Notes: generated from the sequence alone by a model not told the origin. Positions 1 through 50,719 are shown, numbered from the stretch's first letter. The stretch: DNA of 64,000 bases from Elusimicrobiota bacterium (GCA_043819795.1 JBDREN010000083.1:5298-69297), one strand, 5' to 3'. Numbers and translations: made by a program.

Positions 1-714
1 CCCCTTCAGGAAATCCCCGTCTCCCGGACGGGAGCGGTCGAGCGCCGCGTGCTCCGTCTTCATGAGGTCCACCACGAGGCGGGGCGGATCCTTCGCGACG
101 AAGGCGCTGTACGGGACCGGCCGGTCCAGCTTGAGCCGCACCTGGTCGGCGCCGACCTCGACGCCGCGCAGCGAGGCGACCCTCGCGGGCACGGGCGGCA
201 GGGGCGAGAGGATCCCGAGGGCCCGTCTAGCCGGGGAGCTCTCCGAAGCCGGGCCCGACAGCGGCCCCAGAGCGTCCTTCAGGTCGCCGGGGACGTCGGG
301 CACGAGGCGCAGCGACATCTCGGACCCGAGCCAATAAGTCCAATAGCGCGCCTCGGCGCTCAGGTCGAGTACGATCCGCGTCACCGGCACGGGATCGGTC
401 TCGAACTGACCGCTGCGGACGGCGCGGAACGGCGCGCCCCGCCCTTCCCACAAGCGCGGCGCCGCGTCGTGGACGGTATCGAAGAGGTCGACCACAAGGC
501 GCGGCGGGTCGTGGAGGAGGAAGGTCGCGTGCCGCGCGGGGTTGTCCAGCGAGATCTGAATCCCGTCCGAGAAGACCTGCACGCCCTGGAGGACGCTTTC
601 CGCCAGCGCCTGCCGGGGCGGCAGCGCGGACGCGACGACGAACGCGGCCAGCAGAGCCCCGGCGGCCGTGCGGGTGCCGCACCGGCAGACGTCTAGGTTT
701 TTCGGTTTCATCAT
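1..714 (-). CDS. AMIN-domain secreted protein, N-terminal part (gene runs off window start); signal peptide MMKPKNLDVCRCGTRTAAGALLAAFVVASALPPRQALA followed by three AMIN-like repeats (..PPRLVVDLFDT.., ..VTRIVLDLS.., ..PPRLVVDLMKT..); amidase AmiC-type or secretin-type N-terminus
   Basis: Hand translation of minus strand from ATG 714; open to position 1 in frame (no tta/cta/tca at positions =1 mod 3); start abuts OMP stop (TAAATGATG). Not in the supplied ORF track because it is truncated. Confidence 0.6.
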   Translation of the reverse strand, partial: MMKPKNLDVCRCGTRTAAGALLAAFVVASALPPRQALAESVLQGVQVFSDGIQISLDNPARHATFLLHDPPRLVVDLFDTVHDAAPRLWEGRGAPFRAVRSGQFETDPVPVTRIVLDLSAEARYWTYWLGSEMSLRLVPDVPGDLKDALGPLSGPASESSPARRALGILSPLPPVPARVASLRGVEVGADQVRLKLDRPVPYSAFVAKDPPRLVVDLMKTEHAALDRSRPGDGDFLKG

Positions 715-2379
715 TTAGAACATTACCCTCAGGTTGAAGGATGTACGGTCGTCTTTGTAGTTGAACTGGCCGCTGAAGCGCGAATGGCGCTGCCGCCGGC
801 CGTAGGCGATCCCGGTGGACAGCCAGCGCCGGACCGCGTAGTCGGCGCTCAGGGTCCCGCCGTAGAGATCGTCGCGCCGGTTGGCCGACTCCCCGGACAC
901 GGTGGACGACTCCGGGTAGCGGTCGGTCTGGAGGCTCCCGTCGATGGACACCTTCAGCTTGTGGTACGTATGGCTGGCGCCCAGGCTGGCCCCCGTCGCG
1001 ACGTAATAACGGTTGCTGGAGAAGGTCGCCTCGTTGATCCTGCGGAACGCGCCGATCCGCACATTGGTGCGGCTTCCCGGGGCGTAGACCAGCTGGACGG
1101 AGGTCAGCAGATTCCGAACGTCCCTGTCGCCGCCGGCGGGGGCGTAGTCGTAGCGGCGCAGCTGCGCGTCGGCCTGGACTCGCCCCGAGAGCTTCGCCGT
1201 CAGGCGCCCGTCCACCCCCAGCCCGAAGCGGTGGGACTTCGAATGCTTCCGCGCTCCCGCGGAGTAGTGGATGATCTGGCGGCCGTAGGCGGCGAACAGG
1301 CGCGTCTTCGGCTGCAGCCGTATGCCCGCCTCGCCTTCTATCGAAAGCTCGAAGCGGTTGAGGTTAGAGGAAAGAGACGGGTCGAGGTACTTGTGCAGCA
1401 CGTGCAGCCCGGAAAGCTTGTAGACGAAGCGCCGGCTGCGGGCGTGATCGACGCTCACGCCGAGATCGGCCTTCGTGCGCCGCTTCCGGGCGACGAGCTC
1501 GCTGAAGGCCGGGTCCTCCGTGTTGAGATAGGTCTCCCACGCGCGCATCGAGACGCCCCTGCGCCCCTTGTGGGCGAAAGCCACCTTGATGAGCTGATCC
1601 ACGGAGTTGTTGGCCTTCGGCTGCCGGGAGTACGTGGTCAGCTTCGAGTCGTAGACCACGTCCAGGCGGTTGCGCCGGTTGAACGGGACGGCGAAGTCCG
1701 CTCCCAGGTTGTTCTGGGTGATCCAGGAGCTCCTCACTCCTCCGCCGGTGCGAGCCCCGTTCGCCCTGTCGGGCGGGACGAGATAGATGTTCGAGTCGTA
1801 TGTCTGCCTCAGGCCGTAGTACGGATGCACCTCGATGACCAGGCGCAGCTCCGGCTTCTTGAAGCGCGCCATCTTGTCGAAGGCCCTGGCCAGCCCGGCG
1901 AGCGGGTCCCAGGCGGCGGGTGGAGCGGGCTCCTCGGGGAGCGGGGGCCTGAGGGGAGCGGGCAGCTCTCCGGCCTTGGGCCCGGTCAGAGGCACGAACT
2001 GCCCGGCTCCGACACCGACGGCGGCCGCGCCGCGGGGGGTGACCTCGACCTCCCCGGCGTGGACGAGCATATGCCCCTCCCCTTCCGCGATCAGGAACGT
2101 GAACGAGTCGCCCTTGTCCGCGCGGACCAGCGTCTCCTCCACCAGCAGCAGAGCGTCACCCTCGACGATGGACGCGCGCGCGCCGGAAGGCAGAGAATAG
2201 CCGGAAGAACCGGGAGCGAGGCGGACCGGCCGCTTGTCCACCTCCAGGAGCAGCTTGTCCGAAAAACCGATGACCTGCAGCTTCAGGTCCGCCTTCGTTT
2301 GAGCCAAGCAGGTGTTCGCCGCGATGAGAAGGCCGGCAGCCGCTATACAAGCGCGGATACTCCGGTCCCAGTCAATCAT
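715..2379 (-). CDS. outer-membrane beta-barrel protein (554 aa from MIDWDRSIRACIAAAGLLIAANTCLAQT signal peptide; C-terminal ...FNLRVMF aromatic terminus typical of OMPs)
   Basis: ORF 715..2553; internal Met at 2379 followed by signal peptide; alternating beta-strand pattern and C-terminal F. Confidence 0.6.
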   Translation of the reverse strand: MIDWDRSIRACIAAAGLLIAANTCLAQTKADLKLQVIGFSDKLLLEVDKRPVRLAPGSSGYSLPSGARASIVEGDALLLVEETLVRADKGDSFTFLIAEGEGHMLVHAGEVEVTPRGAAAVGVGAGQFVPLTGPKAGELPAPLRPPLPEEPAPPAAWDPLAGLARAFDKMARFKKPELRLVIEVHPYYGLRQTYDSNIYLVPPDRANGARTGGGVRSSWITQNNLGADFAVPFNRRNRLDVVYDSKLTTYSRQPKANNSVDQLIKVAFAHKGRRGVSMRAWETYLNTEDPAFSELVARKRRTKADLGVSVDHARSRRFVYKLSGLHVLHKYLDPSLSSNLNRFELSIEGEAGIRLQPKTRLFAAYGRQIIHYSAGARKHSKSHRFGLGVDGRLTAKLSGRVQADAQLRRYDYAPAGGDRDVRNLLTSVQLVYAPGSRTNVRIGAFRRINEATFSSNRYYVATGASLGASHTYHKLKVSIDGSLQTDRYPESSTVSGESANRRDDLYGGTLSADYAVRRWLSTGIAYGRRQRHSRFSGQFNYKDDRTSFNLRVMF

Positions 2380-2439
2380 CCTGGACGATGGGCGCGCCGC
2401 ATCCGATAGCGATTCCTCCTTACGACGACAATCCGGCAA

Positions 2440-2480
2440 GAAAAACGCCGCGGCGCCCCCCGCGGGGGGGTTTGTCGCGG
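2440..2480 (-). terminator. GC hairpin (CCCCCCCGCGGGGGG / CGCCGCGGCG) followed by TTTTTCTT on minus strand between LysM gene and OMP gene; terminator or attenuator
   Basis: Palindrome plus T-run read on minus strand; sits between a TTGACA-17-TATCCT promoter-like sequence and the AAGGAGG of the OMP leader. Confidence 0.3.
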
Positions 2481-2604
2481 CGTCAATGGTCCTAAAGTCC
2501 TTATAGGACTTTTGGGAACATCGAAGGATAACCGAAATTACGCGATTTGTCAAGACTCTACACGCTCTTTTCGCAAAGTAGCCTTACTGTGGCGGAGCCT
2601 GCCC

Positions 2605-3378
2605 TCACCTCTTGACCACCGGCACCAGCAGCTTCTGGCCCGGCGTCAGCTCCCCTCCGCGCTGGATCCTGTCGTGATTGGCCTGATACAGCTCGATCCA
2701 GCGCTCGGCGCTCCCGTAAAGCTTGGTCGCGATGCTGCGCAGCGTGTCTCCCCGCCGGACCACGTAGATCCGCGCCCGCGACTCCTCGGAGGGAAGGCCC
2801 CCGTCGCGGAGCGTGGCCTCGATGACGTCGAGGCGCTTGCGCGACTCCTCGGCCTCGCGCTTGGCGCGGCGCGCCTCCGCCTGGGCCTCTTCGACCTCCC
2901 TCTTGAGTTTGTCGAGCTCCTCGGACGACGGAGCGGGGACCTCGACAGAATCCCCCGCCTGCCCCGGATCCGGCGCGGCGGCCGCCGGCGCCTCGACCTG
3001 GATCACCTCCGGGGGACGCGAAGCCTTGGCCGCCCAGCCTGTTCCCGGCGGGGCCTCCACCGTCAAGCGGTAAGCCGCCGAGAGCGCCTCTTCGGGGATC
3101 GCGGAATCCTCTCCCAGGGTCGCGATGAAACGCCCCTTCTCGGCCAGAACGTAGCGGGACTCTCTCCAGACCTCCTTGCCACCGGCGAATTCGTTCCAAA
3201 GGCGGAAGTGCAGCAGGAAGGTCCCGTTCTGCGGTTGGCCTCCGGAATCGGTGAGCTCCCCGGAATATCGCAGGGTCGTCCTGCCCGCGGATGCCGGCAG
3301 ACACAGGATCATGACCGCCAGGGCCGCCAAAGCGCACGGACGAACGCCGGATGTGGATGTGTCGCGCGTCGTTCTCAT
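2605..3378 (-). CDS. LysM-domain periplasmic protein with signal peptide and central coiled coil (257 aa)
   Basis: Start MRTTRD at 3378 with GGAGGA SD; ATGA overlap with upstream response-regulator stop; C-terminal LysM motif YVVRRGDTLRSIATKLYG...YQANHDRI...L.PGQKL. Confidence 0.8.
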   Translation of the reverse strand: MRTTRDTSTSGVRPCALAALAVMILCLPASAGRTTLRYSGELTDSGGQPQNGTFLLHFRLWNEFAGGKEVWRESRYVLAEKGRFIATLGEDSAIPEEALSAAYRLTVEAPPGTGWAAKASRPPEVIQVEAPAAAAPDPGQAGDSVEVPAPSSEELDKLKREVEEAQAEARRAKREAEESRKRLDVIEATLRDGGLPSEESRARIYVVRRGDTLRSIATKLYGSAERWIELYQANHDRIQRGGELTPGQKLLVPVVKR

Positions 3379-4625
3379 GGGATCTCCTCCCGTATTCGTT
3401 CTTCGAAGGCCGACAAGGGCCGGACATGGACGGTGCCGGAGCCGTCCCGGCCCATCCATACGTCGTCGCCCCGCAGCGTGAAGCCGGACAGCGGCGCCCC
3501 CCCCTCGTTCAAGAGCGGGAGGCTGTAGACGGCCAGGACGCCCAGCCTGGCGTCGAGCCGGTGCCTGTAGATCATCCGCGTCTCCGAGTCGGCCGACCAG
3601 AAATACGAGCCGTCCTTGAAGATGGAGGAGGGGGCCCTGCCCGGGGCCGGATAGCTCTCGAGCACCGTCAAGCCGGCGTCGATCCCATGCTGATAGAACC
3701 GCCGCTCCGAGGCGTCGCTGGACCACAAGTAGCGACCGTCGAAATAGACCCCGGCGGGGTTCGGTCCCGGGCTCCGATAGGCGCGCACGAGAGAGAAACG
3801 CTCGTCGAGGCGGCGCTTCTGGATCTCGCGCTTCCAGGAGTCGCATACGTAGAGATGCTCGCCCGAAACGGCGATCCCCGTGATATGCGTCTCCGGCAGG
3901 TGAACGGAGCGGACGACCTCGAGGCGGTTGCCCCGGCGCTCGTACTCGTAGACGCTCTGCGTGACCCAGTCGGCGCTCCAGAGCCGGTCCCCGCGCCAGA
4001 CAAGCGCCGTGGCGTTCTCGTGGGGGATGGCGAAATCCCTGCCCGCCTGCCGTCCGTAGAGCGTCCAGAGGATCCAGGCGCAGAACGCTCCCGCGATGAG
4101 CGCGCCCGCCAGCAGCCACGGCCACCCGGACGCTTCGCGCTTCGCCGGCCCGGCGGACCGGCCGCGCGCCGGCAGAGGCGCGGGACGGGCGTCCAGCGGC
4201 GCGATGACCCCGCGGACCTTCTCCGCGAGACGGCGTCCGAGGACTCCCATCCCTTCCGGAGCCTTGCCGCCGGTGAGAACGCGGTCCACGGTCTCCCTCA
4301 GCTCCCGGTTGCTGAAAGGCTTGGCCAGATAGTGGCTCGCGCCCAGCTGCATGACTTCCACGGCCGACTCCACGCTGCCGTAGCCGGTCACCATCACGAC
4401 CGGCGTCGTCCCATCGACCTCCCGAAGCTTGCGCAGGATCTGCACGCCGTCCATCCCCGGCAGGCGCATGTCCAGCAAGACGAGGTCCGCGCCCTCGCGG
4501 GACAAAAACTGCAGCGCGGTGGGGCCGTCCCCGGCCTCGTAGACCTGGTGACCCAGCCGGCTAAGGACGTTCGCGAGCGCCATCCGCATGTCCGCTTCGT
4601 CGTCTACCACCAGGATGCGTGCCAT
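3375..4625 (-). CDS. response regulator with N-terminal REC domain, one TM helix and a C-terminal extracytoplasmic repeat (beta-propeller-like) domain
   Basis: MARILVVDDEADMRMALANVLSRLGHQVYEAGDG..LVLLDMRLPGMDG = CheY-like receiver; TM WPWLLAGALIAGAFCAWILWTLY; 5 repeats with (L/F)(W/Y)xxD(W/S) motifs. Confidence 0.85.
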   Translation of the reverse strand: MARILVVDDEADMRMALANVLSRLGHQVYEAGDGPTALQFLSREGADLVLLDMRLPGMDGVQILRKLREVDGTTPVVMVTGYGSVESAVEVMQLGASHYLAKPFSNRELRETVDRVLTGGKAPEGMGVLGRRLAEKVRGVIAPLDARPAPLPARGRSAGPAKREASGWPWLLAGALIAGAFCAWILWTLYGRQAGRDFAIPHENATALVWRGDRLWSADWVTQSVYEYERRGNRLEVVRSVHLPETHITGIAVSGEHLYVCDSWKREIQKRRLDERFSLVRAYRSPGPNPAGVYFDGRYLWSSDASERRFYQHGIDAGLTVLESYPAPGRAPSSIFKDGSYFWSADSETRMIYRHRLDARLGVLAVYSLPLLNEGGAPLSGFTLRGDDVWMGRDGSGTVHVRPLSAFEERIREEIP

Positions 4626-4626
4626 G

Positions 4627-7600
4627 TCATCCTCTCTTCGCTTCGACCGAAAGCGTCACAGTCGAGGTGCTGCCCGCGTCCTTCTTGCTCCGGAACTCGA
4701 AGGAACCGCCGTGCGCCGCGACGATCCGTTTCGCGATCGCCACGCCCAGCCCCAGGCCGCCGGCCTTCATGGTGTAGAACGGCCGGCCCACATCCTTGAC
4801 GTGCTCCGGCGCCACTCCGGCGCCGGTGTCGGAGACCTCGACGCGGACGGTCCCGCGCGCCGCCTGATAGCGGGCCCTGATCGTCAGAGTGCCTCCCTCC
4901 GGCATCGCCTCGATCGAGTTGAGCAGCAGGTGCAGCAACGCCTCCTTGAGCCGCTCCGAATCGCCGCGAAGCTCCGGGACACCCTCCGCGACATCCGCCA
5001 CGATCCTGATATGCTTCTCGTCGCACTGCCGGGCGACCTCCGCGACGGCCGAGTCGATCCACGCCTCGACCTCGAGCGCCTGCGGCTTCAGGCCCAGGGG
5101 GCGAGTGAAGTCCGTGAGCTGCTCCAGACGCTCCCGCAGGTTCCCGATCGCCCGGAGGATGGCGTCCATGGTCGCGCGCTCCTTGCCGCCGACCCACAAT
5201 CCGGAGAGCCGGTCCTCCGCCAGGCTCTGGATGATGCCCAGCGGGTTGCGGATCTGATGGGCGATCCCGAAGACGAGATCGGTGAGCTCGGTCTCGAAGG
5301 CCACCTGCGGCAGGCGCCCCGTCTCCGCCTCGGGCTTCAGCCCGGAGAGCAGCCGGTCGCGCAGCTGACGGAGCTCCCTCTGCCGCCGCTCGATGTCGAC
5401 CTCCGCCCCGGCAAGCTTGTCCTCGCGCCCCTGGGACTGCCTTTCCCTGGCCGTCATCTCCTCATCGAGCTTCCGGCGACGACGCTCGAGCTCGGCCTCC
5501 TCATTCTTGAGCCGCTCGCGCAGCTTCTTGTCCGTCCCCCGCAAGAGCTCCTCGACTTCCTCGCGGCGCCGCTCGACCTCCGCTTCCTTCTGAGCGGACT
5601 CGTCCATGAGGCGCTTCTCGCCGGACTGCTCGCGCTCCTTGAGCGCCTTATCGCGAGCGTCGAGCTCCGCCTCCCTCTTGTGAAGCTCGGACGACGCGGT
5701 TTCCTGCTGCTTCTGCAGGCGCTCGCCTTGGAGCCGCGCGGTCTGCTCGACCTGGACGGCGCTCTGCTCTTCGAGCTCCTTGCGGCGCTCATCGAACTCA
5801 GCCTCGAGCCTGGTGCGCTCCACCACGAGCCTCTTGCGGTTGGCGGCCAAGAGGGCCGACTCCTTCTCGGCCAGGACGGTCCGCATCTCGCGCTCGAGCT
5901 CCTCGCGACGCCGCGCCTGGTCCTCATCCGCCGCCCTCTGCGACTCGCGCAGCAGACGGCGCTCGTGCTCGAGCTGCGCGTCAAGGTCCCGCTCGTGCGC
6001 CAAACGGCGCTCCTCCCCCTGCTTCTCCAGGAGGTCCTCGCGCTTGCGCAGCTGATCCTCCAGGCTCTCCGCGTGCAGGCGGAACTCCTCCTCCTTCTCC
6101 TTGAGCTGCGCGCGGAGATCGTCCTCTTTGGTCTGCAGATCCCGGTCGTAACGCGCGCGCTCCTCGCGCCGGATGCCGCGACGCGCCTCCTCGACCTTGT
6201 GCAGGAACTCCTTCTGAAGCGCGGCGCGCTCGGCGTCGAGGCCCTCCTCGCGCCTGGCCATCTCATCGCGCAGAGCGACGTGCATCTCCTCGGACGACTT
6301 GCGCAGCTCCGCGCGGTTGCGCTCCTGAGCCTCGCTGACCTCATTGAGCAGCGCCTCCTCCCGCTTCTTCCACGCGCGCTGAAGCTCCTCTTCCCTGCCC
6401 AGATGCTCCCGCTGCAGGGCCGTCTCGCGCTCGCGGAAGTCGCGCTCGAGCTCGGCGCGGCGGGCGTCGAGCCCCGCACGGGCGCGCTCGAGCGCCTCGC
6501 GCTCCGCCGCGACGGACTGCCGCAGGTCGCTGCGCTCCCGCTCCAGCTCGGCCTCGCGTTCCTCGACCGACTCGCGCATGGCCGTCTCCTTGCGCGCGTA
6601 GGCTTCCCGCAGCTCCGTCTCCCGGGCCTTCAGCTTCCGGCGACTCTCCTCGACCTCGACCTCGAGCTCGGCCTTGGCCTTCGCCCAATCCTCCCGCAAC
6701 GCCTCCCGCTGCGCATCGAGATGACCCGAGACCTCCGCCTCGGCCTCCTCGCGCGCGCGCCGCAGCTCGGCCTCCTTCTCGCTGACCGCCTTCTCCAGAG
6801 CCCGCTCCCTCTCGCGGTACTCCCGGGCCACTCCGCTCTTAAACGACTCCAGCTCCCGGGACCGCCGCACCTCCTCGGCCGCGAGCTCGGCGCGCTCCCG
6901 CTCGAGCTCCCCGTGACGCGCCTGGTAGGCGGCCTGCAACTCCTCCTGCCGGTTGCGATACTCGGCCTCCAGGCCGGCCCGGGCCTTTTCGACGTCCCGA
7001 CTTCGCTCCGCCAGCGCGGCGCTCTTGCTCTCGATCTCCCGGACCTGCTCCTGCCGCTCCCGCTCGAAGCGCGCGGCCAGCTCGGTTCTCTGGTCGGCCA
7101 GCTCCTTGCGAAGCTCGGCCTCGCGATGAACGAAGGACTCCTCAAGAGCCTGCTCGCGCTTCCGGAGCGAATCCTCCACACGCTTTTGGGCCGCCCCCAG
7201 CCCCTCGGTCTGGCGTTCGAGCTCGGCCTGACGCGCGCGAACGCCCTGCTCCTGCTTCTGCTGCTCCATGGCCAGAGCATCGCGAAGCTCGGCCTCGCTC
7301 TGCGCGAACGACTCCTCAAGAGCCTGCTCGCGTTTCCGGAGCGAGTCCTCCACGCGCTTGCGGGCCGACTCCAACTCCTCGGTCTTACGTTCGAGCTCGG
7401 CCTGACGCGCGCGAACGGCCTGCTCCAGCGTCTGCTGCTCCGCGGCCAGCGTCTCGCGGTCGCGCTCGAAGCCGGCGCGCAGCTCCCGTTCGCGCAACGC
7501 CGAGGCGGAACGCACCCCCTCCTCCCGCGCCCGGAAGGCGTTCTCGAGCTGCGTCTCGCGCTCACGCAGGCTTTTCTCAACCTGTAATTTGGACGCGTCG

Positions 7601-10600
7601 AGTTCCCGCATCCGCCGCGCCAGCTCCGCCTCGAGGCGCTCGCGCTCAGCGGCGAGCTCCTCCTCTTTCTGCCGGACCGCCGATTCCACCTCGGCCGCGC
7701 GGTCGCCGTGCTCGCTCTCCAGCAGCGACCGCCGGTGCGCGAGCTCTTCTTGGAAAGCCTTGCGCTCCCGCTGCGTCCGGGCGGAAAGCTCCGCGTCCCG
7801 CTTGGCGAACCCCGCGCGCAGCTGTTCCTCCCGCGCCGAGTAGGCGCGCTGCAGATCGGCCTCACCCTCCCGCGCGCGCTCCTCGAGCGCGAGGCGAGCC
7901 TCCTCGAGCGCCTTTTCCTTGCGCGCGAGCTCGTCCTGTCGCTGCTCGGCGGCCTGATCGAGCTGCTTTTCCTTATATATGAGCTCGGCCTGGCGCTCGG
8001 CAAGGACGCGCTCGTGCTCCTCGTACGTCTCCTGAAGCCGCCGGCGCTCCTCGACGAGCGCGGCGCGCAGCTCGCTCTCTCGAGCCGCCAACGCCGAGCG
8101 CGACTCCTCCTTCCGCTTCTCGAACTCGCGCTCGAGCCGCGCCTCGCGTTCCTGCAGCCTCTTTTCCTCGTCCATCCGGGACGTCTCCAGCTCGCGCTTC
8201 TTGCGCCCCGTCTCGTCCTCGATGCGGGTGCGCTCGCGCTCGATGGCCTCCTCCCTCCCGCGCAACACCAGGTCCATCTCACGCTGACGGTCCTCGAACG
8301 CCCGGTGCATCTCGGCGCGCTCGCTCTCCGACTCCACCTTGCGCCGCTCAAGACGCTCCATGGCCTGGGCGCGCTCGTTGTTCGCGGCGTCCTCGCGCTT
8401 CCGGAAGTCCGACTCGAGCTCCGATAGACGCTGCTGGTGGGCCTTCTCCAGATCAGCCTCCTGGGACCGGATCGCCTTCTCCAGCTCGAAACGCAGGCGG
8501 TCCAGCTCACCCTCCCTTCGGTCGTACTCGGCCTCAAGCGCGGCGCGCTGCTTCTCAAGAGCCGCCTCGAGCTTCCGTCGAGACTCGTCCTCCCAGCGGG
8601 CCTCGCGCTCGTTGAGACGCTCCGTGAAGGACCTGAGCTCGGCCGCCAGGCGGTCCTCGGCCTCGCGCTTCGAAAGATCCTGCTTATGCTCCCATTCGGC
8701 CTTCAACTCGGCCTCGAGCTGGAGGAAGTTCTTCTGAAGCGCATCTTCGCGCTCCCGGTAGAGAGCGTCGAGAGCGGCCCGCTCGCGGGACTGATTGTCC
8801 TGCATCTCGGAGACCATCGCCTGCTCGCGCCGACGCAGATCCTCGCCAAGAGACTCGTCCTTGGACTTGTACTCAGCCTCGAGGGCCTGCCTCCGCGAGT
8901 CAAGGTCCTTGACGCGCGACTCCAGCTCGGCGGCCTGCGCCGCCATCGCCTTGCGATGCTCCTCCTGGAAGTGCTGGTACTCCTTCGCGATCTCCCTGCG
9001 CTGATGGTCCAGCCAGGCGTCGTTGCGCTTCTTCATCTCCGCGCGGGACTCCGCGAGGCGGCGCTTGTACTCGCGCTCGAGATTGTCCTGCTGGTTCTTC
9101 AGCTCGGCTTCCCGCTGGGCGATCGCCTCGCGCATCTCGCCTGCGATGCGCTCGGTCTCGTAGCGTATGCGAGCGCGATAGCTCTCGCGCTCCTCGTCGA
9201 CCTTCTGCAGCAGCTCGCTCTCACGCTGGCTCCACCGCTTCTCGAGCTCAGCCTCGCGCTCGAGATAGGACTTATCCAGCCTCGTCTCCTTCTCCCGCAT
9301 CTCCTTTTGGAGCTGCGCCTGCAGCTTCTCCAGCTCCAGCTGCTTGCGCTCGTATTCCTCCTCCAGGACCGCACGTTGCGACTCGAGCTGCGCCGCCCTC
9401 TTGACCTCGAACTCGGCCTCCGACTGGCGGACCTTGCGCTGGATCCCGTCCTCCTGCTCCTTGAGCGAGCGTTTGAGCTTCTCGGCGGACTCCTCCTCCA
9501 GGAGTTGGGCCTTGTGCGCCCGGTCATCCTTCAGCTGCTTCTCGAGGCTCACATAGTTCGAATGCAGGGTCTCCTCGCGGCTCCGGTAAAGCTCGTCGAG
9601 GGACTGACGCTCCCGCGTCAGGACGACCTGCTGCTCCTCGATGAAGCGTCTCTCCCTGAGACGCCACTCGTCGGCGAGCTCCTCCTCCCGCTTCCGGTGG
9701 TAAGCCTGGAGGGCGTCGCGCCGCTTGGCCAGCTCACCCTCCCGCTCGTTCGACTCGGCGTTGAGCGCCTCGAGGTGGGCGCGGGCGTGCTCCTTCTGCT
9801 GCTCCCGTTCGCGGATGGTCATGCGGCGCTGGCGCTCCAGCCACTGCTCCTTCTCCTTCTCGGACTCGGCCAGGGCGTCTCTCTTCCAAGCTTCGAACCG
9901 CACCGCCAGCTGCGAGTCCGCCTCCGCGAGGGCCGCGGCGTGCTGCTCCCGCTCCTTCTGACGCTCGGCCTCGAGCGCCTGCACGGTCTCCGCGAAGCGC
10001 TGCGCCTGCGCCTGGAGGGCTTCCTGCCGCCGCGAGAGGTATTCCCTCTCCTTGCCCGTCCATAGCTCCTGAAGGCCGCGCTCCATCTCGATGTACTTCT
10101 CCTCGCGCTGGGCTTCTCGGCGCTTCTGGGCCTCCTGAATGGAGACGCGCTCCGCCTCGTGCCGGCGCTCGCGCGACTGCAGGTCCTCCCAGAGCGCCCG
10201 CTTCTCCGCATCCAACTTCTCGAACTCTTCGCGGACGCGGCTCAGCTCCAGATCCTTCTCCGAAAGCTGCTTCTCGCGCTCCAGGAGCTCGCTCTGATGC
10301 CCTTCCTTCAGGTTCTTGACCCGAAGCTTCCACTCGGCCTCGCGCCGCTCGTACTCGGCGTCCAGGTGCCTGGCCTGCTGGAGCAGATGCCGGCCCTGCG
10401 CCTCCTTGAGCGCCCGGACCTCCGCGGCGTGAGCGTCCTTGGCTTCGGCCTCCCGGCGATCGTAGCGGTCCTCGAGGTCCCGCTCCAGGCGCGCGTAATC
10501 CTGCTTCATCTTCTCGGACCGGCCGAAGAGATCGGCCTCATCGCGCTGGCGCCGCTGGTCGTGCTCCTCCTTCGTCTTCTCCATCTCCATGCGGGCCGCG

Positions 10601-12225
10601 CGGCGCACCTGCTCCAGCGCGATCTCGTAGCGGCGCACCAGCTCGGCCTCCCGCAGGTGCCACTGCTTATCGAGGTTCTTCTCCTTCTGGATGTACTCCG
10701 AGATCACGGTCTGCTTCCACGTCCGGAACTGCTCCTCGATCGTCTGCTGGGTCCTCTCCAGCTCGGCGACCCGGGCCTGGTAGGCCTCCTCGAGCGTCCG
10801 GTCGCGCTGCTCGAACTGCGACTTCAGGGAAGCCCGCTCGGCCTCGACGGCCTTCTCATGCTCCTCGAGGAGCTCCATCTTGCGGCGCGTCCACTCCTCG
10901 CGCAGCGCGTTCTCCTTCGCCAAGTACTGCTCCTGCATCTCCACGTGCTTGTGCTGGGAGGCCTCCTCGAGCGCCTTCTCGCGCTCTTGCACGCGGTTCT
11001 CGGCCTCCGCCCAGCGGGCGTTGAACTCGGCTTCGAGGGCGGTGCGTTGGCGGTCCCCGTCGCGCTGGACCTCGGCCTCCCGCCGCTCGAGGTCCCGGGA
11101 CCGCGCCTGATACTCCTCCTCGAGGGCCTTGGCGCGCTGTCGCGCCCGCTCGGCGGCTTCCGCCTTTTCCTTCTCGAGCTCGTCCTCGACGCGCTTGAGC
11201 AGCTGCGCCTCCTTACGGATGTGGCTCTGCTGCTGCTGGGTCTCCATCTCGGCGTAACGCGTCTCCACGCTCTTCACACGCTTCTGGAAGTCCTCCTCCA
11301 GCTCCCGACGCCGGCGCTCGAGAAGCCCTTCGATCTCGCGCGAGCGGTCGGCCAGCGCGCGGGCACGCTCCTCGAACTGCTCCTGCACGGCCGTATCCAG
11401 CTTCTCACGCGCATCCTTCGCGCGCTGCCACAAGCCGTTCTCGAGCTCCGCCCAGGCGGCCTGCAGCTCGGCCTCGCGCTTGCCGTACTTCTCCTGCAGG
11501 GCGAGCTCCTTGGACCGGAACTCCCCGAAGAGCTTCTCCTCGCGCTCCTGGAGCTTGAGCTCGCCCTCCTTCGCGGCGGCGGCCAGCACCCGCTGGAACT
11601 CCTCGTTCTTGCGCCTAAGATCGAGTATCTCGCGCTCCTTGAGCTCGAGCTCCGCCTCGCGGTTCTTCAGCGTGTTGAGGATCTCCTCGTCGCGTTTCTG
11701 GCGCAGCCGCTGCACCATATCCTGGTCGCGGTGGAAACGGTTGACGAGCTCGGCCTTCTCGCGCTGGGAGGCCATCAGCTCGGCGTCGCGCTGCTCGAGA
11801 ATGCGCCTGAGCTCCCGCCACTGCTCCTCCTTGGAGCGGTGCGTGCCCTTCCACTGCTGGACCTCTGCCGTCAGGCGGGACAGCTCCTCGTCCATGTGCC
11901 CGCGGTCGCGCTCCACGCGCGTCCGTTCCTCTTCGCGGACCTCGAGACGCACACGGTCGCGCCAGCGCTGCTCCTGATCCCGATGATTCTTGCGCTCCTC
12001 CTCCCAGCCTTTGGACTCGTCCTTCCATGCGGCGACCTGTCTCGTCAACTCCTCCTTCTCCTGCTGGAGCATCTGCTGTCCGTTCTGGGCTTCCTGGAGG
12101 TTCCCCTTGAGGCGCACATTCATATCCTGGAGGTCACGGATCGTGGCCACGGCCCCCCGGATCGCAAGTCGCGCAGCTTCCAGATCGGTTATCTCTCGAT
12201 ATGCCTCTTCATCCCATGGGTTCAT
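4627..12225 (-). CDS. giant (~2530 aa) coiled-coil sensor histidine kinase: ~2250 aa of E/R/K/A/L/Q-rich heptad sequence then HisKA (IAHQIRNPL) + HATPase_c (GTGLGLGVA)
   Basis: Single ORF 4627..12309; real start MNPWDEEAYRE at 12225 supplied by upstream repeat unit (GGGAGGcgaccATGA); no TM segments evident; internal 58-codon tandem duplication. Confidence 0.85.
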   Translation of the reverse strand: MNPWDEEAYREITDLEAARLAIRGAVATIRDLQDMNVRLKGNLQEAQNGQQMLQQEKEELTRQVAAWKDESKGWEEERKNHRDQEQRWRDRVRLEVREEERTRVERDRGHMDEELSRLTAEVQQWKGTHRSKEEQWRELRRILEQRDAELMASQREKAELVNRFHRDQDMVQRLRQKRDEEILNTLKNREAELELKEREILDLRRKNEEFQRVLAAAAKEGELKLQEREEKLFGEFRSKELALQEKYGKREAELQAAWAELENGLWQRAKDAREKLDTAVQEQFEERARALADRSREIEGLLERRRRELEEDFQKRVKSVETRYAEMETQQQQSHIRKEAQLLKRVEDELEKEKAEAAERARQRAKALEEEYQARSRDLERREAEVQRDGDRQRTALEAEFNARWAEAENRVQEREKALEEASQHKHVEMQEQYLAKENALREEWTRRKMELLEEHEKAVEAERASLKSQFEQRDRTLEEAYQARVAELERTQQTIEEQFRTWKQTVISEYIQKEKNLDKQWHLREAELVRRYEIALEQVRRAARMEMEKTKEEHDQRRQRDEADLFGRSEKMKQDYARLERDLEDRYDRREAEAKDAHAAEVRALKEAQGRHLLQQARHLDAEYERREAEWKLRVKNLKEGHQSELLEREKQLSEKDLELSRVREEFEKLDAEKRALWEDLQSRERRHEAERVSIQEAQKRREAQREEKYIEMERGLQELWTGKEREYLSRRQEALQAQAQRFAETVQALEAERQKEREQHAAALAEADSQLAVRFEAWKRDALAESEKEKEQWLERQRRMTIREREQQKEHARAHLEALNAESNEREGELAKRRDALQAYHRKREEELADEWRLRERRFIEEQQVVLTRERQSLDELYRSREETLHSNYVSLEKQLKDDRAHKAQLLEEESAEKLKRSLKEQEDGIQRKVRQSEAEFEVKRAAQLESQRAVLEEEYERKQLELEKLQAQLQKEMREKETRLDKSYLEREAELEKRWSQRESELLQKVDEERESYRARIRYETERIAGEMREAIAQREAELKNQQDNLEREYKRRLAESRAEMKKRNDAWLDHQRREIAKEYQHFQEEHRKAMAAQAAELESRVKDLDSRRQALEAEYKSKDESLGEDLRRREQAMVSEMQDNQSRERAALDALYREREDALQKNFLQLEAELKAEWEHKQDLSKREAEDRLAAELRSFTERLNEREARWEDESRRKLEAALEKQRAALEAEYDRREGELDRLRFELEKAIRSQEADLEKAHQQRLSELESDFRKREDAANNERAQAMERLERRKVESESERAEMHRAFEDRQREMDLVLRGREEAIERERTRIEDETGRKKRELETSRMDEEKRLQEREARLEREFEKRKEESRSALAARESELRAALVEERRRLQETYEEHERVLAERQAELIYKEKQLDQAAEQRQDELARKEKALEEARLALEERAREGEADLQRAYSAREEQLRAGFAKRDAELSARTQRERKAFQEELAHRRSLLESEHGDRAAEVESAVRQKEEELAAERERLEAELARRMRELDASKLQVEKSLRERETQLENAFRAREEGVRSASALRERELRAGFERDRETLAAEQQTLEQAVRARQAELERKTEELESARKRVEDSLRKREQALEESFAQSEAELRDALAMEQQKQEQGVRARQAELERQTEGLGAAQKRVEDSLRKREQALEESFVHREAELRKELADQRTELAARFERERQEQVREIESKSAALAERSRDVEKARAGLEAEYRNRQEELQAAYQARHGELERERAELAAEEVRRSRELESFKSGVAREYRERERALEKAVSEKEAELRRAREEAEAEVSGHLDAQREALREDWAKAKAELEVEVEESRRKLKARETELREAYARKETAMRESVEEREAELERERSDLRQSVAAEREALERARAGLDARRAELERDFRERETALQREHLGREEELQRAWKKREEALLNEVSEAQERNRAELRKSSEEMHVALRDEMARREEGLDAERAALQKEFLHKVEEARRGIRREERARYDRDLQTKEDDLRAQLKEKEEEFRLHAESLEDQLRKREDLLEKQGEERRLAHERDLDAQLEHERRLLRESQRAADEDQARRREELEREMRTVLAEKESALLAANRKRLVVERTRLEAEFDERRKELEEQSAVQVEQTARLQGERLQKQQETASSELHKREAELDARDKALKEREQSGEKRLMDESAQKEAEVERRREEVEELLRGTDKKLRERLKNEEAELERRRRKLDEEMTARERQSQGREDKLAGAEVDIERRQRELRQLRDRLLSGLKPEAETGRLPQVAFETELTDLVFGIAHQIRNPLGIIQSLAEDRLSGLWVGGKERATMDAILRAIGNLRERLEQLTDFTRPLGLKPQALEVEAWIDSAVAEVARQCDEKHIRIVADVAEGVPELRGDSERLKEALLHLLLNSIEAMPEGGTLTIRARYQAARGTVRVEVSDTGAGVAPEHVKDVGRPFYTMKAGGLGLGVAIAKRIVAAHGGSFEFRSKKDAGSTSTVTLSVEAKRG

Positions 12226-12348
12226 GGTCGCCTCCCATGGAGATGGACGCGGCCATCCCCTGCGCGATGCTCGGTCATGGTCGCCTCCCACGGCAGTCGA
12301 CGCGACCATTTCCTGCGCTATGCTCGGTCATAACACTGCCTCCAGGTA
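12222..12348 (-). repeat. two tandem 57-nt copies of SD/start-codon-bearing intergenic repeat (mini-ORFs MTEHSAGNGRVDCRGRRP* and MTEHRAGDGRVHLHGRRP*), with own GGAGG SD, ATGA-coupled to each other and to the giant HK start
   Basis: Reverse complement matches repeat at 50606-50719 and 59231-59397; internal 8-bp inverted repeat ATGGTCGC/GCGACCAT; GGGAGG 6 nt before terminal ATG. Confidence 0.7.
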
Positions 12349-12547
12349 GATACGTCCGCCCCCCACGATGGGGCGATGCCCTATAGCACGAACTCTCTCT
12401 TCAACGTTAGTGTATAGCCGCAACCGGAAAAATCAAGCACTCTCAGCCATTACTTGGCCGAGCCTCGGCGGGTTCCCAGATCCGACTCCTAGCCTAGGGA
12501 AAGGATAACGGGGGGTAATTACAGATTCTTTAACGAAAATCGGGGCC

Positions 12548-12774
12548 TAACAGTCCGTGGCAAAAGTCTTCCGGGGCCTGCGATCGCCTGGATGCGGCCT
12601 GCGCCCGCGTTGCTCCTCGGTCACACCGGGCCCCGGCAGGGGCCCAGTGCCGCACGACCTCAGGAAATGCTTCGGAGCGCTGTCATCCCGTAGAGGGATG
12701 CTACCTCGTCGCGCCTTGGCTCGGCTCGCCCCGGACGATTTCGCCATCCGAAATACTTTTGCCACGGACTGTTA
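12548..12774. mobile_element. MITE-like element: 20-bp perfect terminal inverted repeats TAACAGTCCGTGGCAAAAGT flanking ~187 bp, in intergenic region between two HK genes
   Basis: Left IR 12548-12567, right IR 12755-12774 (exact reverse complement); right IR overlaps stop codon of PAS-HK gene; symmetric spurious ORFs MAKVFR on both strands. Confidence 0.45.
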
Positions 12775-13839
12775 AGGCCGCGATCGAGCGGGGAAGACAA
12801 CGGTGACGGCCGTCCCTCGGCCGGCCTCGCTGTCGAAGGAGATGGTCGCCTCGTGCTCGGCCAGGACGCGCTTGGCGAGATAGAGCCCCAGACCCGTGCC
12901 GTCCTCTTTGGTCGTGAAGAAGGGCGCGCTGACCTTCGCCAACACCTCGGGCGCCATCCCCGCGCCCGAGTCCCCCACGACGAGACGCGCCCCCCCCCGC
13001 TCCGGGACGTCCGTGACGACGCGCAGGCGCCCCCCTTTCGGCATGGCCTCGATCGCGTTGACCAGCAGGTTATGGACCACGGCGCGGACATGCTGCTCGT
13101 CGAGGAGCAGTCTCGGGATGTCGCCGAGCCGCACATCGAGCTCGATCCGCTGCTTCTGGCACATCTTCTCGACGAGACGGACGACGCCGCGCGCCACCTC
13201 GTTGAGCGAGCCCTCGCGCAAGAGAGACTTCCCCACCTTGGCGAAGTCCAGAAGGGCCCGTATCGAAAGCGACCCGTGCCGGGCGTTGCGGAGGATCATC
13301 TCGAGGTTCTCTTTCATCTTGGAGTCGGGGGAGAGGGACTCGAGCCCGAACTCGGCCGTGCTGGCGATGACGTGCAGCGGCGTGCGCATCTCGTGAGCGA
13401 AGGTCGCCGCCATTCGCCCGACAGCGCTGAAGCGCTCCATCCTGACCAACGCCTCCTGGACGGCCTTGTGCTCGGGGGCCGTCTCGAAGTCGGCCACGGG
13501 GGGGCTGATCATGACGAGGAAGGCCTCGGGGCCCTTCCCCAGCGAGCGGACGGTCAAGAACACCCTTTCCGGGCTCCCGTCGCGGCGCGTCATCCGCGCC
13601 TCGTAGTTTTTGAGCACCTTCACGTTGCAGGCCGCCTTGAGCAATCCGACGCATTCCTCCCGCCTCGGGAAGAACTCCGCGAAGTCGCGATCGACAGCCT
13701 CCTCGAGGGGGACGCCAAGGAGCTCGGCGGCTCCGCGGGACCACGTCCGGACCACGCGGGAACCGTCGAGCCCGACGAGCGCATCCTCGGACTCGTCGAA
13801 CATGCAGGCGAAAAGGCGGTCTTTCAACCGTTCTTCCAT
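12772..13839 (-). CDS. PAS-domain sensor histidine kinase (PAS + HisKA FAHEMRTPL + HATPase_c)
   Basis: Motifs FAHEMRTPLHVI, NLLVNAIEAM, GDSGAGM, GTGLGLYLAKR. Confidence 0.85.
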   Translation of the reverse strand: MEERLKDRLFACMFDESEDALVGLDGSRVVRTWSRGAAELLGVPLEEAVDRDFAEFFPRREECVGLLKAACNVKVLKNYEARMTRRDGSPERVFLTVRSLGKGPEAFLVMISPPVADFETAPEHKAVQEALVRMERFSAVGRMAATFAHEMRTPLHVIASTAEFGLESLSPDSKMKENLEMILRNARHGSLSIRALLDFAKVGKSLLREGSLNEVARGVVRLVEKMCQKQRIELDVRLGDIPRLLLDEQHVRAVVHNLLVNAIEAMPKGGRLRVVTDVPERGGARLVVGDSGAGMAPEVLAKVSAPFFTTKEDGTGLGLYLAKRVLAEHEATISFDSEAGRGTAVTVVFPARSRP

Positions 13840-13979
13840 AGCTTTCCAGCGCCCCGGCGACGACCCCGGGACCGCGCTTCGCCGGTCCTGGCGCCGACGA
13901 CGGCAAGTATACCGCCTCCCCCGCGAAAAATCAATGACCGCTTCGCGACGTGACCGCTTCGTGACCGCCGTCGTGGGTC

Positions 13980-14008
13980 TTGCGAGGCTTCGACTTTTAC
14001 TTTACAAT
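13980..14008 (+). promoter_or_regulatory. sigma70-like promoter TTGCGA-17-TACAAT upstream of orphan gene 14029; preceded by three TGACCGC(TTCG) direct repeats (13935-13969)
   Basis: Near-consensus hexamers with 17-nt spacer; AGGAG SD 9 nt before ATG 14029. Confidence 0.45.
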
Positions 14009-14028
14009 TACGGACAGGAGCCCGACGC

Positions 14029-14919: not shown

Positions 14920-15167
14920 CCCGCCTCTTACACGAGCCCCTGTGGCGGAGCGTGGATCGTGCTGGGCCCTCCGGCCCTTTCGATCTCGCCACCCGGGACC
15001 AAGCGGCGGTGCCGGCGGCTTGGGTCCGGGCCTCAGCCGCCTCGGCCCACGCGCTCCTCCGAAAACGCTCCCGACGGGGACCCCCGATCCGCCTTAGGCC
15101 CTAAGTCCCGAGAAAGCATGGGCCCCCCGGCACTGGCCTTCTAGGACTTTTCCCCTATCCTATCGGT

Positions 15168-23572: not shown

Positions 23573-23597
23573 AGCCGGAGGCCAAGCGAGACATCCC

Positions 23598-24293: not shown

Positions 24294-24305
24294 CGGTACG
24301 GCTCC

Positions 24306-46642: not shown

Positions 46643-46709
46643 TTCATCAGGTTTCTCCGTACGCGCGCCCGTACGCGAGCGTAGCGGCGGGGAATCTCGG
46701 CAGAAATCG

Positions 46710-50609: not shown

Positions 50610-50719
50610 CCGAGCATAGCGCGGTTTCGGCTGCGTGCCTCAGCCATTCCCTCGCGTTTGGCCGCAAACGCTTCGGTCACAGGAATGGTCGCGTCGATCG
50701 CCGCGGGAGGCGACCATGA
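50606..50719 (+). repeat. 114-nt long form of SD/start-bearing intergenic repeat: mini-ORF GTG..TGA (37 codons) whose GTG overlaps upstream GT4 stop (GTGA) and whose TGA overlaps downstream GT2 ATG (ATGA)
   Basis: Near-identical to 59231-59344; internal hairpins GCGTTTG-gccg-CAAACGC and ATGGTCGC..GCGACCAT; GGGAGG 6 nt before ATG 50716. Confidence 0.7.

What the first reader, a model, noticed from the sequence alone, without database searches (positions are those of the whole stretch)
1..13839. Candidate envelope-spanning signalling module: PAS-HK / giant coiled-coil HK / TM-anchored RR / LysM / OMP barrel / AMIN protein
Six co-directional minus-strand genes have tight junctions (TGA-C-ATG, ATGA, TAAATG). 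They combine two sensor kinases with peptidoglycan-binding (LysM, AMIN) and outer-membrane components. This combination is not a described two-component architecture. It could couple cell-wall or septal state to signalling, or form a structural trans-envelope assembly.
Basis: inference. Interest (0 to 1): 0.75.

Follow-up and report, generated by a model that had tools for sequence, protein, structure and literature searches.

The report
Envelope-spanning coiled-coil kinase module, Elusimicrobiota
An uncultivated Elusimicrobiota bacterium has a conserved, undescribed gene set in which a giant rod-like cytoplasmic kinase is paired with a membrane-anchored response regulator whose output domain sits in the periplasm, next to cell-wall-binding proteins and an outer-membrane pore, which suggests signalling or mechanical coupling from the inside of the cell outwards.

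Summary
All six genes and their domains are real. Two junctions are not tight: 462-546 nt after the PAS kinase and 222 nt before the outer-membrane protein (OMP).

Giant kinase, response regulator (RR), LysM protein and OMP keep their order in all three type A relatives read. RR and OMP homologues also have matching longest-contig lengths in about ten more cases. Kinase-RR adjacency holds in six Elusimicrobiota lineages. The PAS kinase is conserved in two of three close relatives. The AMIN protein is an orphan but shares an 85-residue domain with the LysM protein.

- The RR is receiver + one TM helix + periplasmic five-bladed propeller (glutaminyl-cyclase-like fold).
- The kinase is about 2,300 proline-free coiled-coil residues with no sensor domain.
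- In paralogues the same N-terminal motif and coiled coil are fused directly to the same TM-propeller. Here a kinase-receiver pair replaces that covalent link.
- The OMP is an 18-stranded AlgE-like barrel. A barrel-only homologue sits in a Wza/Wzz/Wzy polysaccharide-export locus, and a full-length one near other polysaccharide genes.

Best reading: a lineage-specific trans-envelope module with inside-out phospho-control of an outer-membrane export or attachment site. No curated family or paper describes it. Function is inferred.

The parts
12772..13839 (-). PAS histidine kinase (355 aa), soluble. Probably a separate transcription unit.
   Evidence: Pfam PAS/HisKA/HATPase_c. No TM window. Orthologues lie upstream of the giant gene in L085 (64% id) and L001 (56% id), but not in L084. 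A sigma-70-like site lies at 13934-13906.
12543..12779 (.). 237-bp element bounded by 32-nt inverted repeats (20 nt perfect). It overlaps the PAS-HK stop codon. It could be MITE-like or a large terminator hairpin.
   Evidence: the repeat finder I1. The pattern occurs only twice in the window, against 0 expected. It is absent from the shorter L085 intergenic region.
12222..12331 (-). 53-nt tandem duplication. It creates two 18-codon uORFs, each with a GGGAGG Shine-Dalgarno site and each ending in an ATGA overlap with the next start. The second overlaps the giant gene's start.
   Evidence: TRF. Sequence read directly.
4627..12225 (-). Giant cytoplasmic histidine kinase (about 2,532 aa from the likely start; the ORF extends to 12309). 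It has a conserved 40-residue N-terminal motif, then about 2,300 proline-free coiled-coil residues (hydrophobic period 3.63), then DHp (AHQIRNPL) and the catalytic domain.
   Evidence: The N-terminal motif is homologous to that of the fused cc-TM-propeller family (hhalign probability 98.1, E 1e-13).
3375..4625 (-). Bitopic response regulator (416 aa): receiver 1-117, helix 128-140, disordered linker, TM helix 169-193, periplasmic five-bladed beta-propeller 196-411.
2605..3378 (-). Periplasmic peptidoglycan-binding protein (257 aa): signal peptide, 85-aa 'domain X', Pro-rich linker, about 50-aa coiled coil, C-terminal LysM.
   Evidence: Orthologues lie directly after the RR in L085, L001 and L084. 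Domain X is aligned.
2448..2553 (-). Sigma-70-like site (TTGACA-17-TATCCT) followed by a GC hairpin and a T-run, inside the 222-nt LysM/OMP gap. This gap is absent in relatives, where the junction is -4 to +47 nt.
   Evidence: No Rfam hit.
715..2379 (-). Outer-membrane protein (554 aa): signal peptide, periplasmic beta-sandwich 34-130, linker, helix 159-172, 18-stranded barrel 183-553.
1..714 (-). First 238 residues of a 379-aa AMIN protein: signal peptide and two AMIN domains. The C-terminal domain X lies outside the window.
   Evidence: Pfam AMIN. Full protein P0121, with no other homologue. Domain X is 43.5% identical over 85 aa to the LysM protein, E 1e-16.

Best explanation
The locus encodes an Elusimicrobiota-specific module that spans the cell envelope.

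**Core pair.**
- One partner is a soluble, presumably dimeric, histidine kinase. In place of a sensor domain it has an uninterrupted coiled-coil rod of about 2,300 residues. If extended, the rod would be roughly 340 nm long. It is capped by a conserved 40-residue N-terminal motif.
- The other partner is its adjacent cognate response regulator. This is a bitopic inner-membrane protein with a cytoplasmic receiver and a periplasmic five-bladed propeller as its only output.
- In paralogues the same motif and rod are fused covalently to the same TM-propeller. Rod and anchor therefore work as one unit. In this variant the covalent joint has been replaced by a kinase-receiver pair, so the joint, or the state of the anchor, is set by phosphorylation.

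**Periplasmic and outer-membrane side.**
- The propeller faces peptidoglycan-bound proteins: domain X-coiled coil-LysM, and AMIN-AMIN-domain X.
- It also faces an 18-stranded AlgE-like outer-membrane barrel that carries a periplasmic beta-sandwich.

**Most likely working.** Phosphotransfer from the rod kinase to the receiver changes the propeller's contacts across the membrane. This inside-out signal would position or gate an outer-membrane export or attachment site, probably for a surface polysaccharide.

**Shown.** Gene content, domain folds, topology by model, conserved synteny, and the fusion/fission relationship.

**Inferred.** Phosphotransfer, physical contacts, direction of signalling, and the cargo.
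For: **The two-component pair is intact.**
- Domains and catalytic motifs are present in the HK: H, N, G1, F and G2 boxes.
- Receiver residues D8, D9, D52 and K102 are invariant in 25 homologues, and T80 is at least 90% conserved.
- The HK gene lies immediately upstream of the RR gene in the window (TGA-C-ATG) and in L085, L001, L084, L083, L086, L087 and L088.

**The HK has no sensor of its own.**
- Coiled-coil length ranges from none (217-244 aa HKs in L087 and L003) to more than 4,222 aa in L088.
- The H-box is of the AHQIRNP type in the HKs whose sequences were read: window, L087, and L088 (AHQVRNP).

**Fusion/fission evidence.**
- An exhaustive HMMER search with the TM-propeller finds many 500-1,200-aa proteins built as N-motif + coiled coil + TM + propeller.
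- Their N-termini match those of the giant-HK family (hhalign probability 98.1, E 1e-13).
- One such protein (P0172) comes from the same genome as the L085 module.

**Conservation of the periplasmic and outer-membrane partners.**
- LysM follows the RR, and the OMP follows LysM, in all three type A relatives read.
- About ten further RR/OMP homologue pairs have matching longest-contig lengths, which suggests they share a contig.
- In type B loci an OM barrel, a coiled coil and LysM are one protein, encoded just upstream of the HK.
- In L090 and L092 full-length OMP homologues sit next to fused cc-TM-propeller genes, with no HK or REC present.
- AMIN and LysM proteins share domain X.

**Link to polysaccharide export.**
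- The OMP model is an 18-stranded barrel closest to AlgE.
- The barrel-only homologue P0153 lies in a Wza/Wzz/Wzy_C/GT locus.
- P0172 follows Wza-Wzc.
- L092 carries Bac_transf and GT2 genes.
- 18-stranded AlgE-like barrels are established partners of short OPX proteins (PMC9601211, PMC9603273).
Against: - There is no experimental or co-folding evidence for any contact or for phosphotransfer.
- In this window the LysM/OMP junction is interrupted by 222 nt with promoter- and terminator-like sites.
- The AMIN gene is unique to this genome.
- The type A barrel is not detectably homologous to the PorV-like barrel fused to LysM in type B loci (hhalign probability 0.4). The 'barrel next to LysM' theme is therefore analogy, not shared descent.
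- No Wza, Wzc or Wzy gene lies in the 64-kb window. The polysaccharide link rests on paralogous loci.
- A receiver cannot obviously transmit a conformational change through a 30-residue disordered linker (residues 141-166, pLDDT below 50).
- The direction of signalling could be the reverse.
Confidence: 0.45

Rival explanations
1. Outside-in sensing with a split sensor. The propeller is the periplasmic ligand- or cell-wall-state sensor. Its state controls whether the tethered receiver can accept or drain phosphate from a sensor-less kinase. The real output would be elsewhere, for example another RR such as the NtrC-type protein seen in L001, or the rod itself.
For: - The HK family has no sensor domain in any form. 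The shortest members are DHp + CA only.
- The propeller is the only periplasmic domain in the HK-RR pair.
- L001 has an NtrC-type RR and a sigma-54 promoter in front of the giant operon.
Against: - The fused paralogues have neither kinase nor receiver, yet keep the rod, TM and propeller. The ancestral role of the propeller therefore does not require phosphorelay.
- No second RR is present in the window.
Confidence: 0.2
2. A surface-protein anchoring module of the type IX (type-B CTD / PorP-SprF) kind. The barrel and LysM would hold a secreted adhesin at the surface, and the two-component pair would regulate it, in analogy to PorXY.
For: - Type B relatives encode fn3/FlgD_ig/CHU_C proteins and PorV/PorP-like barrels fused to coiled coil-LysM directly upstream of the HK-RR pair.
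- A 2,161-aa protein of the length called at the edge of L086 (P0166) carries propeller-like repeats.
Against: - In the window no CHU_C or T9SS-type cargo was found among the 26 window proteins scanned with Pfam.
- The OMP is BBP2_2/AlgE-like, not PorV-like.
- All PorV and PorP hits in relatives are below the curated cut-offs.
- T9SS core genes were not looked for.
Confidence: 0.1
3. A cell-division or cell-wall remodelling landmark. AMIN and LysM would target septal or polar peptidoglycan. The rod and anchor would act like PodJ, HubP or FimV, recruiting factors to a pole or septum.
For: - AMIN and LysM domains are present.
- The overall inventory (periplasmic PG binding + TM + large cytoplasmic scaffold) resembles these landmark proteins (own knowledge).
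- In L083 the module lies 4 kb from ftsA-ftsZ.
Against: - There is no sequence relationship to those proteins.
- The AMIN gene is not conserved.
- The ftsAZ proximity was seen in L083 only (L004 and L005 were not checked beyond the HK and RR genes).
- This reading does not explain the recurring AlgE-like barrel or the Wza/Wzc neighbours.
Confidence: 0.12
4. There is no integrated module. A two-component pair merely sits next to unrelated envelope genes, and the neighbourhood is preserved only because the compared genomes are related.
For: - There are two large intergenic gaps with promoter-like sites.
- Comparisons are confined to one phylum.
- The type A relatives also share downstream genes such as Dus and a PilT-like ATPase.
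Against: - Association of the propeller anchor with an OM barrel and/or LysM recurs in three different gene orders and three different domain fusions.
- RR identity falls to about 40% across these loci.
- The flanking genes differ between them.
Confidence: 0.08

Closest known systems
LapD, Alg44 and PelD inside-out receptors
   Same: A cytoplasmic signal-binding domain is joined through the inner membrane to a periplasmic output that controls a surface or secretion process (PMC3032553 for LapD; Alg44 and PelD from own knowledge).
   Different: The input here is a phospho-accepting receiver fed by a dedicated kinase, not a c-di-GMP-binding domain. The periplasmic domain is a five-bladed propeller. 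There is no sequence relationship.
Composite OPX/beta-barrel polysaccharide translocon (EpsX/WzpX with EpsY/WzaX; AlgE)
   Same: The window's OMP is an 18-stranded barrel with AlgE as its closest solved structure. A barrel-only homologue lies beside a short Poly_export-SLBB protein, Wzz and Wzy_C, as described in PMC9601211 and PMC9603273.
   Different: The window OMP carries an extra N-terminal periplasmic beta-sandwich. It has no OPX, PCP or polymerase gene nearby. It is instead linked to LysM, the RR and the HK.
PodJ, HubP/FimV and TipN polar landmark proteins
   Same: They combine a periplasmic peptidoglycan-binding part, a membrane anchor and a large coiled-coil or repeat-rich cytoplasmic scaffold. 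PodJ recruits a histidine kinase (own knowledge).
   Different: Those are single polypeptides. Here the parts lie on three to five proteins, the scaffold itself is the kinase, and no homology was detected.
Myxococcus AglZ and FrzS (receiver + long coiled coil) in the Agl-Glt trans-envelope machinery
   Same: A receiver domain is combined with a long cytoplasmic coiled coil and associated with an envelope-spanning complex that includes OM barrels (own knowledge).
   Different: In AglZ and FrzS the receiver and the coil are in one soluble protein with no kinase domain and no TM-propeller.
PorXY with PorP/SprF and type-B CTD cargo (type IX secretion)
   Same: A two-component pair is encoded with an OM barrel and CTD-bearing surface proteins in the type B relatives.
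   Different: PorX is soluble and has a PglZ output. The window's barrel is not PorV/PorP-like. No CTD cargo was found in the window.

Membership tests
Two-component system (HisKA kinase + CheY-like receiver) | Kinase with a phospho-accepting His in DHp and N/G1/F/G2 ATP-binding boxes | tested here: met
   HATPase_c at 1.6e-21. AtoS/ZraS-like match over residues 2342-2558. AHQIRNPL, LLNSIEAM, DTGAGV and GGLGLG were read in the sequence.
Two-component system (HisKA kinase + CheY-like receiver) | Receiver with acidic pocket, phospho-acceptor Asp, and conserved Thr and Lys | tested here: met
   Response_reg at 7.8e-31. D8, D9, D52 and K102 are invariant, and T80 is at least 90% conserved, in 25 homologues.
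Two-component system (HisKA kinase + CheY-like receiver) | Cognate pair encoded together | tested here: met
   There is a 1-nt spacer in the window. Adjacency holds in seven other loci from six lineages.
Two-component system (HisKA kinase + CheY-like receiver) | Phosphotransfer from kinase to receiver | not testable with these tools
   This needs in-vitro phosphotransfer profiling.
Composite OPX/beta-barrel polysaccharide export translocon | 18-stranded AlgE-like OM barrel | tested here: met
Composite OPX/beta-barrel polysaccharide export translocon | Adjacent short OPX (Poly_export + SLBB) and PCP/Wzy genes | tested here: not met
   None was found in the window by Pfam scans of 26 ORFs or by tblastn with Wza and Wzc. 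They are present only at paralogous loci L089 and L091.
Type IX secretion type-B cargo / PorP-SprF module | CHU_C (type-B CTD) cargo gene next to a PorP/SprF/PorV-family barrel | tested here: not met
   The window OMP is BBP2_2, with no profile match to the PorV-like barrels. No CHU_C was found in the window proteins scanned. The feature is seen only in type B relatives, below curated cut-offs.
Type IX secretion type-B cargo / PorP-SprF module | Core PorK/L/M/N and Sov translocon in the genome | not tested
   Only a 64-kb window was available.
Plant/bacterial-type glutaminyl cyclase | Five-bladed propeller fold | tested here: met
Plant/bacterial-type glutaminyl cyclase | Sequence-family membership and catalytic residues | tested here: not met
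   No Glu_cyclase_2 hit even at E = 5. Only weak SGL/NHL hits. Identity to the structures is 14%. Catalytic residues were not mapped.
PilQ secretin / AmiC amidase (usual carriers of AMIN) | Secretin or amidase_3 domain after the AMIN domains | tested here: not met
   The full protein P0121 is 379 aa, with AMIN domains and domain X only.
FimV/HubP/PodJ landmark proteins | Homology to, or the single-chain architecture of, PG-binding + TM + scaffold | tested here: not met
   No Pfam or NCBIfam hit to these families. The parts are on separate proteins.

The most novel reading that the evidence does not exclude
The kinase-receiver pair is used as a phospho-switchable mechanical joint. A cell-scale cytoplasmic coiled-coil rod (2,300 to more than 4,000 residues) docks reversibly, through DHp-receiver binding, onto a trans-envelope anchor made of TM-propeller, a PG-bound coiled-coil/LysM layer and an OM barrel. 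This would be a regulated cytoskeleton-to-outer-membrane linkage, and a use of two-component proteins as structural connectors rather than only as information carriers.
Probability: 0.2. Interest if true: 0.9.

Novelty: new variant of a known kind. Interest (0 to 1): 0.7.

Why it matters
Response regulators are almost always cytoplasmic effectors. A conserved family whose only output is a periplasmic propeller would be a clear case of phosphorylation-driven inside-out signalling across the inner membrane.

The fusion/fission relationship is rare comparative evidence for how a signalling pair can be inserted into a structural protein. On one side the rod is joined directly to the anchor. On the other, rod-kinase and receiver-anchor are separate proteins.

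The kinase family has coiled coils ranging from zero to more than 4,000 residues. That makes it a natural length series for testing how coiled coils control kinase activity.

The module also gives a first handle on envelope organisation and possibly surface-polymer export in Elusimicrobiota, a phylum with almost no experimental cell biology.

Tried and rejected
- **Genome-contig scan with the RR alignment.** The tool chose receiver-domain peptides, so 77 of 80 loci were generic response regulators. Only L003-L005 were useful.
- **Source contig.** It could not be fetched because P0001 is not in the position index. The DNA beyond the window start was therefore not seen, and the AMIN protein was recovered only as P0121.
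- **Rfam on 1-15000.** No hits, so the leader hairpins are not known RNA families.
- **Pfam at E up to 5.** Nothing useful for domain X, the OMP N-domain or the N-terminal motif.
- **PDB profile searches for domain X and the N-motif.** Only chance-level hits.
- **Type A barrel versus type B PorV-like barrel.** hhalign found no relationship. A strict Rosetta-stone argument for OMP-LysM was dropped.
- **Sigma-54 promoter upstream of the giant gene.** None in the window or L085. A good one is present only in L001.
- **OMP N-domain versus the 235-aa protein upstream of the short barrel in L089.** Only 26% identity over 77 aa, E 0.002. This is treated as a hint, not a finding.
- **AFDB fold search.** Unavailable.
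- **AMIN protein as PilQ or AmiC.** Considered and rejected.
- **Giant protein as SMC/Rad50-like.** Considered and rejected. It has no ATPase heads, only coiled-coil noise hits.

Full report
**What is in the sequence.**
The window is 68% G+C and comes from an Elusimicrobiota metagenome-assembled genome. The RR, OMP and AMIN proteins have 100%-identical entries from a 72,290-bp NCBI contig.

- a soluble PAS-HisKA-HATPase kinase (12772-13839);
- a 2,560-codon ORF (4627-12309) whose only recognisable part is a HisKA/HATPase kinase core at residues 2342-2558;
- a 416-aa protein with an N-terminal receiver (3375-4625);
- a 257-aa secreted protein ending in LysM (2605-3378);
- a 554-aa BBP2_2/EpsL-like outer-membrane protein (715-2379);
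- an AMIN protein cut by the window edge (1-714).

Two other junctions are not tight.
- After the PAS kinase there are 462 nt. This stretch holds a 237-bp element bounded by 32-nt inverted repeats and a 53-nt tandem duplication that creates two 18-codon uORFs.
- Between LysM and the OMP there are 222 nt, with a 10/12 sigma-70-like site followed by a GC hairpin and a T-run.

Homologues of the giant protein all start at MNPWDEE. Its true start is therefore probably 12225, directly overlapping the stop of the second uORF.

**The individual proteins.**

*Giant kinase.* It has no hydrophobic segment and no proline between residues 31 and 2326. Its composition is 20% Glu, 15% Arg, 12% Ala and 11% Leu. 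Large hydrophobic residues recur every 3.63 residues (29/8), with sequence autocorrelation at lags of 11, 18, 29 and 58. A 58-residue unit has recently duplicated. This is an amphipathic coiled-coil rod with hendecad-type rather than heptad periodicity. If fully extended it would be about 340 nm long (inference).

*AMIN protein.* The full protein (P0121) is 379 aa and has no homologue in 5.8 billion clusters. Its last 85 residues are 43.5% identical (E 1e-16) to the N-terminal domain of the LysM protein. This 'domain X' has no Pfam or PDB relative.

**Conservation.**
More than 100 full-length RR homologues were listed (35-69% identity), and every one that carries a source name is Elusimicrobia. 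Three gene arrangements emerged.

- *Type A* (window, L085, L001, L084; RR 55-64% identical). The order is giant HK (1,776-2,859 aa), RR, domain X-coiled coil-LysM, BBP2_2 OMP. Junctions in the relatives are overlapping or short. The OMP family has only 38 members.
- *Type B* (L083, L004, L005, L086, L087, L003; RR about 40-46%). Here a single protein carries a PorV/PorP-like barrel, a coiled coil and LysM, encoded just upstream. In L083, L086 and L087 that gene is preceded by fn3/FlgD_ig/CHU_C proteins. The RR follows the kinase. The kinase may be split into two roughly 1,100-aa coiled-coil proteins, or reduced to a bare 217-244-aa DHp-CA. In L088 the kinase exceeds 4,222 aa.
- *Type C* (L090, L092). 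A full-length OMP homologue lies next to proteins built as coiled coil + TM + propeller. There is no kinase, no receiver and no LysM.

**The key comparative result.**
An exhaustive HMMER search with the TM-propeller alone found 3,529 relatives. Besides the roughly 400-aa receiver forms, many are 500-1,200 aa with the propeller at the extreme C-terminus. In these a single TM segment is preceded by 260-900 residues of charged, proline-poor coiled coil, and many begin with NLDTARMTLRWALERIRxLE. That N-terminal motif is homologous to the N-terminus of the giant-kinase family (hhalign probability 98.1, E 1e-13).

The same head and rod are therefore joined to the same anchor in one of two ways. One is a peptide bond. 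In the window's variant, the other is a kinase domain on the rod and a receiver on the anchor. Both forms coexist in one genome, GWA2_69_24. This is the strongest evidence that the rod-kinase and the membrane RR act as one unit. It also suggests the two-component pair was inserted at the joint.

**What it may act on.**
The recurring partner of the anchor is an outer-membrane barrel, with or without a peptidoglycan-binding coiled-coil protein.
- The window's barrel family is tied to polysaccharide export by fold (AlgE).
- The barrel-only homologue P0153 sits beside an epimerase, a short Poly_export-SLBB protein, Wzz, Wzy_C and a glycosyltransferase.
- The fused paralogue P0172 sits directly after Wza-Wzc.
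- Bac_transf and GT2 genes lie in L092.
- 18-stranded AlgE-like barrels are established partners of short OPX proteins in Wzx/Wzy pathways (PMC9601211, PMC9603273).

The window itself has no Wza, Wzc or Wzy. Its other glycosyltransferases belong to an LPS-core cluster. The type B loci point instead to CTD-bearing surface proteins. The cargo is therefore inferred, not shown.

**Mechanism proposed.**
The rod-kinase dimer autophosphorylates and transfers phosphate to D52 of the membrane-tethered receiver. This changes oligomerisation or orientation of the TM-propeller. In turn it changes the propeller's contacts with the PG-bound domain X proteins and with the OMP's periplasmic domain. The result would be to position or gate an outer-membrane export or attachment site.

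- Shown: intact catalytic motifs, adjacency, topology by model, the fusion/fission relationship, and recurrent association with barrels.
- Inferred: every contact, the direction of signalling, and the cargo.

The PAS kinase is probably a separate transcriptional input. In L001 it is followed by an NtrC-type RR, and a 10/12 sigma-54 promoter precedes the giant gene. Neither is present in the window.

**Comparison with known systems, and novelty.**
The module works like the inside-out receptors LapD, Alg44 and PelD. It resembles PodJ, HubP and FimV in its inventory of parts. It fails the defining features of each family tested, as set out in the membership table. Pfam, NCBIfam, Rfam and PDB sequence searches, and five literature searches, returned no description of the RR family, the giant kinase or the module.

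I rate it a new variant of a known kind: a two-component system with an unprecedented architecture and context. Interest is high for signalling and envelope biology, tempered by the complete lack of experimental data and by the uncertainty over cargo and signalling direction.

Noticed in passing
window 12222-12331 (minus strand): A 53-nt tandem duplication makes two near-identical 18-codon uORFs (MTEHSAGNGRVDCRGRRP, MTEHRAGDGRVHLHGRRP). Each has its own GGGAGG Shine-Dalgarno site, and each stop overlaps the next ATG. The second is coupled to the giant gene's likely start. It is absent in L085.
   Followed up: partly
window 12543-12779: A 237-bp element is bounded by 32-nt inverted repeats (20 nt perfect) and overlaps the PAS-HK stop codon. 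It is a single copy in the window. It could be a MITE-like insertion or a very long terminator hairpin.
   Followed up: partly
window about 12358-12374 and L085 1373-1390: An 18-nt block identical in window and L085 (about GCCCCATCGTGGGGGGC), able to form a small hairpin, is conserved in the 5' leader of the giant gene between two genomes whose intergenic regions are otherwise diverged.
   Followed up: no
window 2448-2553 (minus strand): A strong sigma-70-like site (TTGACA-17-TATCCT) is followed about 60 nt later by a GC hairpin and a T-run, and only then by the OMP start. This is a promoter-terminator-gene order that suggests a leader or attenuator. There is no Rfam match.
   Followed up: partly
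window 7096-7443: A recent 174-nt (58-codon) tandem duplication, 86% identical, lies inside the coiled-coil region. It shows how the rod changes length. Homologues range from 0 to more than 4,200 residues of coil.
   Followed up: partly
window 28433-29623 (-) and 29637-32927 (-): A PorV/UPF0164-like outer-membrane protein is encoded directly after a 1,096-aa protein with an FTP (peptidase propeptide) motif. This may be a cargo-plus-barrel pair like those in type B loci.
   Followed up: no
window 15168-20408 (+): A 1,746-aa protein has a signal peptide, three tandem copies of KAAHATNGKAPVKSAEKA and a C-terminal hydrophobic tail. It has no Pfam hit. It lies just beyond the PAS-HK, on the opposite strand.
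   Followed up: no
window 22544-25730 and 45338-54558: LPS-core and lipid A genes are present: three GT9 heptosyltransferases, Kdo transferase, LpxK, GT4 and a PMT_2/ArnT-like protein. Lgt, SecD, SecF and Tgt are also present. This confirms a diderm, LPS-bearing organism.
   Followed up: partly
L001 2418-2693: A near-consensus sigma-54 promoter (TGGCAATAAAATTGCA) lies upstream of the giant gene, next to an NtrC-family RR and the PAS-HK orthologue. This circuit is missing from the window.
   Followed up: partly
proteins P0166, P0173, P0211, P0255; a 2,161-aa gene at L086 1-624 has the same length as P0166: Very large proteins (2,161-6,267 aa) carry 10-22 stretches related to the RR propeller blades. 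A gene with the same product length as P0166 is called at the edge of the type B locus L086 (identity not checked), upstream of CHU_C proteins.
   Followed up: no
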